A DNA stretch of 64,000 bases, taken from the NCBI RefSeq assembly GCF_016026235.1, contig NZ_CP065613.1; one strand, given 5' to 3'. The DNA comes from Escherichia coli (GTDB lineage Bacteria; Pseudomonadota; Gammaproteobacteria; Enterobacterales; Enterobacteriaceae). Shown one piece after another: positions 30,764 through 37,833 of the stretch. The position numbers were made by a program, and so were the translations under genes. Each line of letters begins with the position of its first letter. The first letter of the stretch is position 1. The notes under the pieces are model-generated. The model was not told where the DNA came from. It was given only the letters and a program-made list of their open reading frames with translations, and did not search any database.

Positions 30764-32057
30764 CTGAGGAATCCCCAGAAAACAAGACAGGCATAGTGAG
30801 ATGTGATCTAATTGATTGTGCTAACAATTTCAAGGAGATCACCACTATGCCTGCACGTTCATTATGCCAAAATTTCCTTAACAATATACTGGCCCCTTTG
30901 CATCTTTACCGTCAAAAATCACTGATTGACGCAACTAATGCTGTAATAAATGGCGCTTCCCTCACACTTACCAGTATCGGGCGTCATTTAACCGGTACGG
31001 CATCAGTTAAAAACAAAATAAAGCGGGTGGATCGACTGTTGGGGAATCGACATTTGCAAAATGAGGTTTCCACCATTTTTCAGCGAATTACCCAAAAGAT
31101 TACGCGGGGAATGTCTCGTGTTGTGATACTCATTGACTGGAGTGCTTATCATGCCTCTCGTTTTCAGCTTTTGCGGGCAAGCCTGGCATGTGACGGGCGT
31201 TCTTTACCGTTGATGAGTTGTGTCGTTCCATCATCACAGACAGCGAATGCAGATGTACATGAGCGTTTTCTGGAATCGCTTGCTGAGTGCTTTTCCCCCG
31301 GGACTGATGTCATTGTTATTACAGATGCCGGTTTTCAGGGGCGATGGTTCCAACAGCTCCGCTCCCGTGGCTGGACCTATATTTGCCGGGTACTGGGCAA
31401 TCATTATTACAATGTTGGTAATGGCTGGGAAAAGGTGTCGGACTCAGGCACAAAAGCATCAACGACAGCAATTTATTTAGGTGAAGGCCTGCTGGGTCGA
31501 GATAAAAATGCACAACATGAAGGGCATTTTTATCTTTATAAAAGTAAGCCTAAAGGTCGTAGATTTAAACGCTCGAAGGAAAGAGCAACCAGACCATCGG
31601 TGACGGCTAAAGCTCGTACTGCCGGGAAATCACCATGGTTTATTTTCACAAACAGTACTGAGTTCTCGCCAAAACAGGTAATGAAATTATACAGCCGTAG
31701 AATGCAAATTGAGCAAAATTTCAGGGATGAAAAAAATCCTCGCTGGGGATTTGGACTACGGTTTGGTGCCAGTCATTCATCCGGGCGGGTCACGGTATTG
31801 AGTCTGATCGCAACATTAGCCAGTATCATTATGTGGTTAAGCGGTTTCAGCCTGGAAAACAAAGGGATACATCATAAATATCAGGCAAATACAGTGAAGC
31901 ACAGGCGAGTCATCTCGTTATTAAAACTGGCGGAGAATGTGATTCGACATTCTCCACTCATACTAAACACACTGTCACTTGACGCAGGGCTGAAAGTTCT
32001 ACAGCAACGGTATACCAATATGATAATGGTTTACTAAATTTTCTGGGGATCCCTCAG
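30764..32057 (+). mobile_element. IS4-family insertion sequence, IS10-like ends, copy 1
   Basis: 1294 bp, terminal inverted repeats CTGAGGAATCCCCAGAAAAC / CTGAGGGATCCCCAGAAAAT, flanking direct repeat. Confidence 0.85.
30847..32037 (+). CDS. IS4-family (IS10-like) transposase
   Basis: 396 aa; RIDRLLGNRHL-like and YSRRMQIEQNFRDxK motifs recalled from IS10 transposase; AAGGAG RBS. Confidence 0.85.
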   Translation: MPARSLCQNFLNNILAPLHLYRQKSLIDATNAVINGASLTLTSIGRHLTGTASVKNKIKRVDRLLGNRHLQNEVSTIFQRITQKITRGMSRVVILIDWSAYHASRFQLLRASLACDGRSLPLMSCVVPSSQTANADVHERFLESLAECFSPGTDVIVITDAGFQGRWFQQLRSRGWTYICRVLGNHYYNVGNGWEKVSDSGTKASTTAIYLGEGLLGRDKNAQHEGHFYLYKSKPKGRRFKRSKERATRPSVTAKARTAGKSPWFIFTNSTEFSPKQVMKLYSRRMQIEQNFRDEKNPRWGFGLRFGASHSSGRVTVLSLIATLASIIMWLSGFSLENKGIHHKYQANTVKHRRVISLLKLAENVIRHSPLILNTLSLDAGLKVLQQRYTNMIMVY

Positions 32058-32511
32058 GGGTGATAACCCCGTTTACCGCTTCCTTAATCGCGGTGGCAAC
32101 CGCAGTGGCATCATCGCCATTCACCACAGGCACCTGTACACGGGAGCGCCCGACATACAGACTCAGGGTGCCGCTTTCCTCTGCTTCTCCGGCAACCGTC
32201 ACCCTGACCGTCGCCGCCGCCCCTCTGGCTTCCGGTACTGCAATAACATACAGTTCACCGAAAGGATCTGTCTGACGGTAGACTTCCACCATACGCGCCA
32301 GCTGGCTCCCCGCCCCACAAATCTGGCGGGCATAATCTGCCGATGGCATCAGCACCAGGCTGTTAACCTCAATGGCTGCATCGTTGCTGGCATGCCCGAT
32401 CAGTAATGCAGGCGCGCTGGTCACCGCTGTATTTGCCGCAGAATTGTTCATCTCGGCGTAGAACAACGGCACCAGCGTATTCGACGGAACAGTATTAAAA
32501 CTTATCGTCAT
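32058..32511 (-). pseudogene. contractile tail sheath protein, 5' portion
   Basis: MTISFNTVPSNTLVPLFYAEM... N-terminus; frame runs into the IS end. Confidence 0.8.
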
Positions 32512-32669
32512 GATTTTTTAGCCTTATCCTGTTTAACACGTACCACATCACCCGCCGCTATACGGCGGAACCAGTAGCTGCTTTCTTCCACATTTCGCCC
32601 TTCGGAAGGCAAAAGGTCTCCACGGGCAGGGTCAGGAACCGACCGCCCTTTCAGGGGTTTCACAAACAT
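32508..32669 (-). CDS. hypothetical small phage protein
   Basis: 53-aa ORF (below ORF-track cut-off) with ATGA overlap to sheath start. Confidence 0.3.
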   Translation of the reverse strand: MFVKPLKGRSVPDPARGDLLPSEGRNVEESSYWFRRIAAGDVVRVKQDKAKKS

Positions 32670-32678
32670 GAGGGACTC

Positions 32679-35736: not shown

Positions 35737-35750
35737 CGTATTTCTCCTGA

Positions 35751-36437
35751 TTAGAAGTTCAGATTTTTCAGTGCATTCAGTGCAGAGCCCACATCCTCAG
35801 CGTCGCGCAGGGACAGTGCGCCATAGTCCCCGGCCATGAATGCTTTGGCCTGGGTACGGGAGAGTCCGACATCACGCAGGACTCTTTCGATTTTTTTCTG
35901 TTCGGGGATTTCCCCGCGGGCCAGTGCGTTCTTGACGTCGCTGATCCGCGCCTCGTCGTTAGACGGGAACGTCACCAGACTGACTTCCCAGAGGTCGATT
36001 TCTTTCAGCAGAAAGGCTTCTTTGCTCCGGTCGTATTCCCAGTCTTTCAGGACGTACCCAATAGAAAGGCCGGTTAACGAACCGGCCTTCATGTGTGCAT
36101 GTGCACGTTTTGCGAGGGGATCATCATCAATAAGCAACCGTCCCCTGACGTAAAGCCCGACATCGTCTTCCTTCATTTCGGTGTAAACACCGATGGGTTC
36201 ATCCATGCGGTGCTGCCAGAGCAGCGCAGGTAACGCTTTTCTGTCACTCCACGCCCGCAGGGAAGCAGCAAATGCCCCGGACATCACCACATCATCGTGG
36301 CTGTCCTTTACACCAAAGACGGAGCCATACCCTTCAAACTCACCGGAGTCACTGACAGATTTCAGACTCAGCGGTACATCAAGACGTTGTTTCGTCTGCA
36401 TTGGCGTTATCCTTCTGCTTACCGGCTTTACTGCCAT
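35751..36437 (-). CDS. HK97-family prohead protease
   Basis: 228 aa between portal and capsid. Confidence 0.75.
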   Translation of the reverse strand: MAVKPVSRRITPMQTKQRLDVPLSLKSVSDSGEFEGYGSVFGVKDSHDDVVMSGAFAASLRAWSDRKALPALLWQHRMDEPIGVYTEMKEDDVGLYVRGRLLIDDDPLAKRAHAHMKAGSLTGLSIGYVLKDWEYDRSKEAFLLKEIDLWEVSLVTFPSNDEARISDVKNALARGEIPEQKKIERVLRDVGLSRTQAKAFMAGDYGALSLRDAEDVGSALNALKNLNF

Positions 36438-36539
36438 CGGAGGGTTTCGTGGTCATGTTCATCGGTGTGAGATAGACATCCCCACCGGGACGCGGATTCA
36501 TATCTTCCAGGTCGCGGCAGTCATTGGGAGAGTAAATCC
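36379..36539 (-). pseudogene. portal protein, 3' fragment separated by IS insertion
   Basis: frame continues ...GINWGIYS from 37834..38924 across the IS; target duplication GAGTAAATCC. Confidence 0.7.
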
Positions 36540-37833
36540 CTGAGGGATCCCCAGAAAATTTAGTAAACCATTATCATATTGGTATACCGTTGCTGTAGAA
36601 CTTTCAGCCCTGCGTCAAGTGACAGTGTGTTTAGTATGAGTGGAGAATGTCGAATCACATTCTCCGCCAGTTTTAATAACGAGATGACTCGCCTGTGCTT
36701 CACTGTATTTGCCTGATATTTATGATGTATCCCTTTGTTTTCCAGACTGAAACCGCTTAACCACATAATGATACTGGCTAATGTTGCGATCAGACTCAAT
36801 ACCGTGACCCGCCCGGATGAATGACTGGCACCAAACCGTAGTCCAAATCCCCAGCGAGGATTTTTTTCATCCCTGAAATTTTGCTCAATTTGCATTCTAC
36901 GGCTGTATAATTTCATTACCTGTTTTGGCGAGAACTCAGTACTGTTTGTGAAAATAAACCATGGTGATTTCCCGGCAGTACGAGCTTTAGCCGTCACCGA
37001 TGGTCTGGTTGCTCTTTCCTTCGAGCGTTTAAATCTACGACCTTTAGGCTTACTTTTATAAAGATAAAAATGCCCTTCATGTTGTGCATTTTTATCTCGA
37101 CCCAGCAGGCCTTCACCTAAATAAATTGCTGTCGTTGATGCTTTTGTGCCTGAGTCCGACACCTTTTCCCAGCCATTACCAACATTGTAATAATGATTGC
37201 CCAGTACCCGGCAAATATAGGTCCAGCCACGGGAGCGGAGCTGTTGGAACCATCGCCCCTGAAAACCGGCATCTGTAATAACAATGACATCAGTCCCAGG
37301 GGAAAAGCACTCAGCAAGCGATTCCAGAAAACGCTCATGTACATCTGCATTCGCTGTCTGTGATGATGGAACGACACAACTCATCAACGGTAAAGAACGC
37401 CCGTCACATGCCAGGCTTGCCCGCAAAAGCTGAAAACGAGAGGCATGATAAGCACTCCAGTCAATGAGTATCACAACACGAGACATTCCCCGCGTAATCT
37501 TTTGGGTAATTCGCTGAAAAATGGTGGAAACCTCATTTTGCAAATGTCGATTCCCCAACAGTCGATCCACCCGCTTTATTTTGTTTTTAACTGATGCCGT
37601 ACCGGTTAAATGACGCCCGATACTGGTAAGTGTGAGGGAAGCGCCATTTATTACAGCATTAGTTGCGTCAATCAGTGATTTTTGACGGTAAAGATGCAAA
37701 GGGGCCAGTATGTTGTTAAGGAAATTTTGGCATAATGAACGTGCAGGCATAGTGGTGATCTCCTTGAAATTGTTAGCACAATCAATTAGATCACATCTCA
37801 CTATGCCTGTCTTGTTTTCTGGGGATTCCTCAG
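36540..37833 (-). mobile_element. IS4-family insertion sequence, IS10-like ends, copy 2 (inverted relative to copy 1)
   Basis: same 1294-bp element, own target site duplication. Confidence 0.85.
36560..37750 (-). CDS. IS4-family (IS10-like) transposase
   Basis: 396 aa, same protein as copy 1. Confidence 0.85.
   Translation of the reverse strand: MPARSLCQNFLNNILAPLHLYRQKSLIDATNAVINGASLTLTSIGRHLTGTASVKNKIKRVDRLLGNRHLQNEVSTIFQRITQKITRGMSRVVILIDWSAYHASRFQLLRASLACDGRSLPLMSCVVPSSQTANADVHERFLESLAECFSPGTDVIVITDAGFQGRWFQQLRSRGWTYICRVLGNHYYNVGNGWEKVSDSGTKASTTAIYLGEGLLGRDKNAQHEGHFYLYKSKPKGRRFKRSKERATRPSVTAKARTAGKSPWFIFTNSTEFSPKQVMKLYSRRMQIEQNFRDEKNPRWGFGLRFGASHSSGRVTVLSLIATLASIIMWLSGFSLENKGIHHKYQANTVKHRRVISLLKLAENVIRHSPLILNTLSLDAGLKVLQQRYTNMIMVY

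What the first reader, a model, noticed from the sequence alone, without database searches (positions are those of the whole stretch)
30764..37833. Two inverted copies of an IS10-like element, each a separate insertion, split the tail sheath and portal genes
Both 1294-bp copies have their own target duplication (GGGTGATAAC; GAGTAAATCC), so they are independent insertions, not a composite transposon. One splits the sheath gene and the other removes the portal C-terminus, which should make the prophage unable to form particles. The inverted pair also allows recombinational inversion of the 4.5-kb head-gene segment between them.
Basis: seen in the sequence. Interest (0 to 1): 0.5.

Follow-up and report, generated by a model that had tools for sequence, protein, structure and literature searches.

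The report
Two ISEc60 insertions cripple a prophage
Two copies of a known mobile element (ISEc60, a distant IS10 relative) jumped separately into the tail-sheath and portal genes of a phiP27-like prophage of enteroinvasive E. coli, which is ordinary prophage decay.

Summary
Two 1294-bp elements lie at 30764-32057 (+) and 36540-37833 (-). They differ at 3 synonymous positions. Each is flanked by its own 10-bp target duplication (GGGTGATAAC; GAGTAAATCC).

The element is ISEc60, a named IS4-family insertion sequence. It is 99.9% identical to annotated copies in EIEC genomes. Its transposase is only 36% identical to that of IS10, though the termini are nearly the same as IS10's.

Removing each copy plus one duplication in silico restores a 498-aa tail sheath and a 413-aa HK97-type portal. 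That exact portal protein is common in public assemblies.

Public genomes show three stages of the same 99.9%-identical prophage: no IS, IS in the sheath gene only, and IS in both genes. The two insertions were therefore sequential and independent, not a composite transposon. No assembly shows the 4.5-kb segment inverted.

The prophage is about 44 kb, sits at tRNA-Ser and carries ipaH. It almost certainly cannot make particles. This is ordinary IS-driven prophage decay in an EIEC lineage, already present and annotated in public genomes. Interest is low.

The parts
14184..14214 (.). Prophage end: 31-bp att core, a copy of the 3' end of tRNA-Ser
   Evidence: It is an exact 31-bp direct repeat of 58223-58253. 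Homology to the RMDEC465 prophage starts just inside it.
29711..30763 (-). Tail sheath gene, 3' fragment (codons ~149-498, including one copy of the target duplication)
   Evidence: tblastn places sheath residues 149-498 at 30763-29714. Pfam finds Phage_sheath_1 and Phage_sheath_1C in the reconstructed protein.
30754..30763 (.). Target-site duplication GGGTGATAAC, left copy, of ISEc60 copy 1
   Evidence: It is single-copy in the empty sites of L001, L002 and L023.
30764..32057 (+). ISEc60 copy 1 (1294 bp), with its transposase-proximal end (IRL) at 30764
   Evidence: It is 99.9% identical over its full length to elements annotated 'IS4-like element ISEc60 family'. It differs from that consensus only by C122T.
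30847..32037 (+). Transposase gene of copy 1 (396 aa, intact)
   Evidence: Pfam DDE_Tnp_1. NCBIfam NF033591 scores 360.5 bits against a cutoff of 152. The Y-x2-R-x3-E-x6-K motif starts at residue 282. The protein is 100% identical to the ISEc60 transposase of CFSAN029787.
32058..32067 (.). Target-site duplication GGGTGATAAC, right copy
32058..32511 (-). Tail sheath gene, 5' fragment (codons 1-151). The ORF runs on into the IS to 31999, giving a 170-aa chimera.
   Evidence: The exact 170-aa chimera is on record in 36 blocks of public assemblies.
32068..36529 (-). Intervening phage segment in its original orientation. It carries DUF2635, tail terminator, a hypothetical gene, head closure, head-tail connector, major capsid (34510-35736) and prohead protease (35751-36401).
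   Evidence: tblastn with the RMDEC465 proteins. Pfam Phage_capsid and Peptidase_S78. It is collinear and 99.98% identical with the IS-free prophage L023.
36379..36539 (-). Portal gene, orphaned 3' fragment (last 49 codons plus one copy of the duplication). It overlaps the start of the protease gene.
   Evidence: In-silico excision restores a 413-aa ORF. tblastn places portal residues 356-413 here.
36530..36539 (.). Target-site duplication GAGTAAATCC, left copy, of ISEc60 copy 2
36540..37833 (-). ISEc60 copy 2 (1294 bp), inverted relative to copy 1, with IRL at 37833
   Evidence: It differs from the ISEc60 consensus by C536T and C1088T.
36560..37750 (-). Transposase gene of copy 2 (396 aa, identical protein to copy 1)
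37834..37843 (.). Target-site duplication GAGTAAATCC, right copy
37830..38924 (-). Truncated portal ORF (364 aa). Its stop codon TGA is supplied by the terminal CTGA of the IS.
   Evidence: The exact 364-aa product is on record in 43 blocks of public assemblies.
39118..40876 (-). Large terminase gene with a +1 frameshift (G6 instead of G5; C-run 40445-40450 on the + strand), split into 146 + 434 aa
   Evidence: Alignment to the E200086 terL. Run length. The split ORFs are also called in L005, L006, L009 and L010.
58223..58312 (-). tRNA-Ser(cga), the integration site. The integrase ORF 57155-58195 lies next to it.

Best explanation
A ~44-kb prophage is integrated at tRNA-Ser(cga) in an enteroinvasive E. 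coli lineage. It combines a phiP27-type head/contractile-tail module with a lambdoid early region and carries ipaH.

Two separate cut-and-paste transpositions of the multicopy IS4-family element ISEc60 have hit it. The first insertion went into codon ~150 of the tail sheath gene. The second, later one went into codon 364 of the portal gene, in the opposite orientation. Each made its own 10-bp staggered-cut duplication. A +1 frameshift in the large terminase gene followed in a sub-lineage.

Shown by sequence:
- the identity of the element;
- the duplications and the empty sites;
- restoration of both reading frames by in-silico excision;
- the order of events.

Inferred:
- the prophage can no longer package DNA or build a contractile tail;
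- both insertions are also polar on the late operon;
- the inverted 1.3-kb copies are a possible substrate for RecA-mediated inversion, or for Tn10-style joint transposition of the 4.5-kb head-gene segment. No sequence in hand shows that either has happened.
For: Repeat and duplications:
- Inverted repeat and 3 synonymous mismatches.
- 10-bp duplications flank each copy.
- Single-copy targets in E200086, phiP27 and CP065611.1.

Identity of the element:
- Named ISEc60 in RefSeq annotation, at 99.9% identity.
- IS4-family transposase models matched and the YREK motif present.
- Ten further ISEc60 copies elsewhere have 10-bp (eight) or 11-bp (two) duplications, and an eleventh has none.

Restored genes:
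- Excision restores a 498-aa sheath and a 413-aa portal with full Pfam domains.
- The exact restored portal is on record in 2641 blocks of assemblies.

Order of events:
- L023 is 99.9% identical with no IS.
- L026, L029 and L031-L035 carry the sheath IS only, with portal and terL called at full length (413 and 585 aa).
- The window, L004 (EIEC ATM460, O143:H26, PacBio plus Illumina) and L005 carry both.
- L008 and L011 have the truncated portal but an intact terL.

Each copy differs from the ISEc60 consensus only by its own private C-to-T changes.
Against: Nothing contradicts the structural account.

The functional consequence was not tested. The portal loses only its last 49 of 413 residues. 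About 21 of those align to conserved residues of the HK97 portal, and the rest is a low-complexity tail, so that lesion alone might be leaky.

The exact restored 498-aa sheath protein is not on record, although L023 encodes a 498-aa sheath at 99.9% DNA identity.

The order 'sheath first' rests on the distribution among assemblies, not on a phylogeny. Loss of the portal IS by precise excision, which is rare, is not formally excluded.
Confidence: 0.95

Rival explanations
1. The 7.07-kb unit 30764-37833 arrived as one Tn10-like composite transposon. On this reading the two inverted IS copies brought the DNA between them into the prophage.
For: The geometry matches Tn10. The copies are inverted, both transposase genes read inward, and the transposase-proximal ends face outward.
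Against: - The outer flanks are not a duplication of each other (GGGTGATAAC against GAGTAAATCC), whereas each copy has its own.
- The interior is the collinear continuation of the phage late operon. It is 99.98% identical to the IS-free prophage L023.
- Genomes exist with only one of the two copies.
Confidence: 0.01
2. Assembly artefact: a multicopy IS was wrongly placed into the prophage, or repeats were collapsed.
For: ISEc60 is multicopy in related genomes, with up to 38-39 places in one genome. Short-read contigs break at its ends.
Against: - The same two junction pairs occur in independent assemblies: an NCTC assembly (UGFA01), ATM460 (PacBio plus Illumina, PMC8354535), and many short-read contigs that end inside the IS.
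- Perfect 10-bp duplications and precise restoration of both reading frames are not expected from misassembly.
Confidence: 0.01
3. The segment between the copies has already been inverted, or it flips in the population, so the window shows one of two isomers.
For: Inverted repeats of 1294 bp at 99.8% identity are ample substrate for RecA. Recombination between inverted IS copies is the accepted route to inversions in Shigella and E. coli (PMC8072062).
Against: - The duplications match in cis at each copy, and gene order is collinear with IS-free relatives, so the window is the parental isomer.
- Both long assemblies that carry both copies show the same orientation.
- The private SNPs of each copy have not been homogenised in the window.
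- A minority isomer in a culture cannot be seen in a consensus assembly.
Confidence: 0.1

Closest known systems
ISEc60 (IS4 family), as annotated in E. coli/EIEC genomes such as CFSAN029787 and FDAARGOS_943
   Same: Identical length (1294 bp). 99.9% nucleotide identity, 100% identical transposase, same termini and the same 10-bp duplication.
   Different: Only private point changes: C122T in copy 1, and C536T plus C1088T in copy 2.
IS10 / IS10A (IS4 family), the ends of Tn10
   Same: DDE transposase with the YREK signature. Termini CTGA-N3-ATCCCC match at 12 of 13 positions. A GATC lies in one terminus only. The target preference is symmetric. The inverted pair has the Tn10 geometry.
   Different: The transposase is only 36% identical over 93% of its length. 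The element is 1294 bp against 1329 bp, and its duplication is 10 bp against 9 bp. The IS10 length and duplication size are from established knowledge, not measured here.
Phage phiP27 (Stx2e phage) and the SfI/SfII/SfIV/ST64B group
   Same: The structural module runs terS-terL-portal-S78 protease-HK97 capsid-connector genes-sheath-tube-tape measure-baseplate. It is 94% identical in DNA to phiP27 over 68% of 28000-40500 and 84-87% identical to the Sf phages. The gene order is the same.
   Different: The terL allele differs from phiP27's. The early region is lambdoid and mosaic. The prophage carries ipaH rather than stx and is interrupted by two IS copies and a frameshift.
IS-riddled 'grounded' prophages of Shigella/EIEC, for example the sister prophage at the same tRNA-Ser site in EIEC RMDEC465
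   Same: Same integration site and 94-98% identical structural genes, also inactivated by mobile elements.
   Different: The lesions differ: IS4 in the tape measure gene, IS66 in the tail-fibre assembly gene, and a frameshifted integrase. The decay is therefore independent.

Membership tests
ISEc60 (IS4 family insertion sequence) | Near-identity over the full length to the named element | tested here: met
   1294 of 1294 bp aligned at 99.9% to copies annotated 'IS4-like element ISEc60 family transposase'. There are 1 and 2 differences from that consensus.
ISEc60 (IS4 family insertion sequence) | DDE transposase of the IS4 type with the Y-x2-R-x3-E-x6-K signature | tested here: met
   PF01609, E = 1.8e-20. 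NF033591 scores 360.5 bits against a cutoff of 152. YSRRMQIEQNFRDEK starts at residue 282.
ISEc60 (IS4 family insertion sequence) | Terminal inverted repeats and a target duplication of characteristic length | tested here: met
   The terminal repeats match at 18 of 19 positions. Both copies here have 10-bp duplications. Of eleven other ISEc60 copies, eight have 10 bp, two have 11 bp and one has none.
IS10 proper | Transposase closely related to the IS10 transposase | tested here: not met
   36% identity over 93% of the protein to IS10A and ISVsa5.
IS10 proper | 9-bp target duplication and 1329-bp length | tested here: not met
   10 bp and 1294 bp here. The IS10 values are from established knowledge.
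IS10 proper | Termini CTGA..ATCCCC | tested here: met
   12 of 13 terminal bases are identical to the IS10A copy in L012.
Composite (Tn10-like) transposon inserted as a unit | One duplication flanking the outer ends only, with interior DNA foreign to the target | tested here: not met
   The outer flanks differ and each IS has its own duplication. The interior is collinear with IS-free prophages. Single-IS intermediates exist.
Composite (Tn10-like) transposon inserted as a unit | Able to transpose as a unit now | not testable with these tools
   The geometry and two intact transposase genes allow it. No second location of the unit was looked for or seen.
phiP27-like contractile-tailed temperate phage (structural module) | Collinear terminase-portal-protease-HK97 capsid-sheath-tube module with high identity | tested here: met
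   94% DNA identity to phiP27 over 68% of 28000-40500. Matching gene order. Pfam domains.
Invertible DNA segment (programmed switch) | Both orientations observed, with a dedicated site-specific recombinase | tested here: not met
   Only one orientation appears in the window, L004 and L005. No invertase lies in or beside the segment.

The most novel reading that the evidence does not exclude
The two independently inserted ISEc60 copies happen to recreate the Tn10 geometry: inverted, with transposase-proximal ends outward and both transposase genes intact. The 7.07-kb unit could therefore now move as a new compound transposon carrying a capsid-protease-connector cassette, or flip by recombination.

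More broadly, the public series of stages could reflect selection to ground an ipaH-bearing prophage in EIEC rather than neutral decay. That series runs from no IS, to sheath IS, to sheath plus portal IS, to the added terL frameshift. Sister prophages have separate lesions of their own.
Probability: 0.08. Interest if true: 0.3.

Novelty: already known. Interest (0 to 1): 0.1.

Why it matters
It matters little beyond annotation. The result tells an annotator three things:
- the sheath and portal fragments, and the split terminase, are pseudogene pieces of one defective phiP27-like prophage;
- the element should be named ISEc60 rather than IS10;
- the ipaH-bearing prophage of this EIEC lineage is probably immobile as a virus.

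The staged series of lesions in public genomes is a tidy textbook example of stepwise prophage decay. It could also serve as a lineage marker for EIEC O143-type strains.

Tried and rejected
- No record in the complete E. coli RefSeq set carries both insertions. The best hits are IS-free at 96% identity. The source was instead found by exact look-up of the truncated portal.
- Exact look-up of the restored 498-aa sheath found nothing. The restored portal was found in abundance.
- I first read the difference between the window and ATM460 at two of the three inter-copy SNP positions as possible gene conversion between the copies. Comparison with the ISEc60 consensus shows these are simply private C-to-T mutations of the window's copy 2, so I dropped that idea.
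- A literature search for 'ISEc60' returned only tables of mobile elements.
- A search by assembly accession identified only ATM460. The organism name for UGFA01 could not be retrieved.
- ISfinder cannot be queried with these tools.
- Composite-transposon origin, misassembly and a past inversion were each considered and rejected (see the rival explanations).
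Full report
**Observation.** A repeat search finds one long inverted repeat in 29000-40000, with arms at 30763-32059 and 36538-37834.

Reading the ends and comparing the copies base by base gives a 1294-bp element at 30764-32057 and, inverted, at 36540-37833. Its terminal inverted repeats are CTGAGGAATCCCCAGAAAA and CTGAGGGATCCCCAGAAAA, matching at 18 of 19 positions.

The copies differ at three positions (IS positions 122, 536 and 1088). All three differences are synonymous, so both copies encode the same intact 396-aa protein.

Copy 1 is flanked by GGGTGATAAC on both sides, and copy 2 by GAGTAAATCC on both sides. The only correction is that the copies are 99.77% identical, not identical.

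**What the element is.** Against complete E. coli genomes the 1294 bp match full-length at 99.9% to elements that RefSeq annotates as 'IS4-like element ISEc60 family transposase'. These are multicopy in EIEC strains such as CFSAN029787 and reach 38-39 places in one genome.

- The protein hits Pfam DDE_Tnp_1.
- It also hits the NCBIfam equivalog NF033591 'IS4 family transposase' at 360.5 bits, against a cutoff of 152.
- It carries the IS4-family Y-x2-R-x3-E-x6-K signature starting at residue 282.
- It is 100% identical to the CFSAN029787 ISEc60 transposase but only 36% identical to the IS10A and ISVsa5 transposases.
- Its 13 terminal bases match an IS10A copy at 12 of 13 positions.

'IS10-like' is therefore a fair description of the ends and the family, but the element is the separately named ISEc60.

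Eleven further ISEc60 copies, from E. coli genomes and from IMG/VR contigs, were checked for duplications. Eight have 10 bp, two have 11 bp and one has none. The 10-bp duplication seen here is the element's norm. It is not IS10's 9 bp; that figure is from established knowledge.

**What was hit.** Deleting each copy plus one duplication in silico fuses the flanking ORFs into a 498-aa protein and a 413-aa protein.

- The 498-aa protein has the three Pfam tail-sheath domains. The 413-aa protein has a full-length Phage_portal domain.
- Between them lie an HK97-type major capsid gene, an S78 prohead protease and the connector and terminator genes. Beyond the portal lie terL and terS.
- The sheath is split after codon 151. 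Its N-terminal piece runs 19 codons into the IS, giving a 170-aa chimera.
- The portal is cut after codon 364. Its stop codon is the TGA inside the terminal CTGA of the IS. Its last 49 codons survive on the far side at 36379-36539.
- About 21 of those 49 residues align to conserved residues of the solved HK97 portal. The rest is a low-complexity tail.

**Context.** The module is 94% identical to phage phiP27 and 84-87% identical to the Shigella Sf phages and ST64B.

The prophage is bounded by a 31-bp repeat of the 3' end of tRNA-Ser(cga), at 14184-14214 and 58223-58253. An integrase ORF lies next to the tRNA. The early region is lambdoid, and an ipaH gene sits at the distal end.

The window is 100% identical over 17 kb to UGFA01000005.1. 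It differs at three bases from contig JAALAC010000003.1 of EIEC strain ATM460 (O143:H26, phylogroup E, EIEC clade 1; PacBio plus Illumina). The host is therefore an enteroinvasive E. coli lineage.

**Independent insertions and their order.** Three lines of evidence agree.

1. Each copy has its own duplication, and the outer flanks do not match each other.
2. IS-free relatives carry each 10-mer once, at the homologous site. These are E200086, phiP27 and the 99.9%-identical prophage in CP065611.1. The exact restored portal protein is on record in 2641 blocks of public assemblies.
3. Intermediates exist. At least seven assemblies (L026, L029, L031-L035) carry the sheath insertion with the portal and terL called at full length, 413 and 585 aa. 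The empty portal site and the G5 run were confirmed directly in five of them. The window, ATM460 and UGFA01 carry both insertions.

Each copy differs from the ISEc60 consensus only by private C-to-T changes. This fits two separate descents from consensus-type copies elsewhere in the genome.

The most economical history is sheath insertion, then portal insertion, then a +1 G in a G5 run of terL. Contigs L008 and L011 have the truncated portal but an intact 585-aa terL. L005, L006, L009 and L010 have terL split into 146 + 434 aa.

A composite-transposon origin and misassembly are both excluded.

**Consequences (inferred).**

- A sheath protein cut at residue 151, inside its beta-sandwich domain, has its N-terminal part separated from the conserved C-terminal domains. 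It should not polymerise.
- The terminase frameshift separates most of the ATPase domain from the nuclease domain.
- The portal lacks its conserved C-terminal stretch.
- Both IS copies also interrupt the late transcript upstream of the protease, capsid and tail genes.

Particle production is therefore very unlikely. Excision and lysis functions may persist. None of this was tested.

**Inversion and joint mobility.** Two inverted 1.3-kb repeats at 99.8% identity are an obvious substrate for homologous recombination, the accepted route to IS-mediated inversions (PMC8072062). The pair also has the Tn10 arrangement.

However, the window is in the parental orientation: the duplications match in cis and gene order is collinear with IS-free relatives. 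The only other long assemblies with both copies show the same orientation. Inversion remains a possibility, not a finding.

**Verdict.** The name needs correcting to ISEc60, and a third lesion in terL should be added.

The feature is a known IS in a known kind of prophage. It does what IS elements are well known to do in Shigella and EIEC genomes, and it is already present and annotated in public assemblies. Novelty is nil and interest is low.

Noticed in passing
window 40445-40450 (terL 39118-40876, - strand): The large terminase gene carries a +1 G in a homopolymer run (G6 instead of G5), which splits it into 146 + 434 aa. The frameshift is shared by PacBio- and Illumina-based assemblies of the lineage. 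It is absent from relatives that have only the sheath IS, so it is a real, late lesion.
   Followed up: yes
window 15902-17543 (+), near 15920 and 16182: The ipaH effector gene at the prophage end has two 1-nt deletions in C runs relative to ipaHe of RMDEC465. Its longest open piece is 458 aa. This is either a pseudogene or homopolymer error in a long-read-only assembly.
   Followed up: partly
window 30741-30782 and 32039-32075; loci L013-L017, L036-L041: ISEc60 target sites are G-rich on the left and C-rich on the right, roughly (A/G)GG-N4-(C/T)CC. They often lie in the loop of a longer palindrome; the sheath site is GTAAACGG-CAGGGTGATAACC-CCGTTTAC. This symmetric preference recalls IS10 and IS231. 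The duplication is 10 bp in 10 of 12 sites and 11 bp in the other 2.
   Followed up: partly
window 32045-32057 and 36540-36552 versus 30764-30776 and 37821-37833: Only the transposase-distal terminus (CTGAGGGATCCCC) contains a Dam site, GATC. The proximal terminus has GAATC instead. This is the same asymmetry as the IS10 inside and outside ends, and it hints at Dam-coupled regulation. Other GATC sites lie at IS positions 42 and 74, near the transposase start.
   Followed up: no
window 43365-43674 (- strand): A cluster of four tRNA genes (Gly-tcc, Thr-tgt, Lys-ttt, Met-cat) lies inside the prophage, between the antiterminator region and the lysis genes.
   Followed up: no
window 14184-14214 and 58223-58253: An exact 31-bp direct repeat, the 3' end of tRNA-Ser(cga), marks the two ends of the ~44-kb prophage. 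The integrase ORF 57155-58195 appears intact.
   Followed up: partly
L023:6050-7810 (CP065611.1); L003 (RMDEC465) 31220-34571, 40842-43864, 2726-3776: Sister prophages show independent lesions. The IS-free L023 has a nonsense codon in terL. RMDEC465 has IS4 in the tape measure gene, IS66 in the tail-fibre assembly gene and a frameshifted integrase. This prophage family has decayed repeatedly and separately.
   Followed up: partly
window 62726-64000: A tandem direct repeat with a period of about 609 bp and 92.5% identity runs to the end of the window. By the annotation of matching E. coli genomes it lies in the region of the yeeJ inverse-autotransporter Ig-like repeats.
   Followed up: no
L039:5770-7063 (IMGVR_UViG_2877285697_000003): One ISEc60 copy in a viral contig has no matching flanking duplication (GGGCAATTCC against GGGAAACGTC). 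This suggests a past IS-IS recombination or an adjacent deletion there.
   Followed up: no
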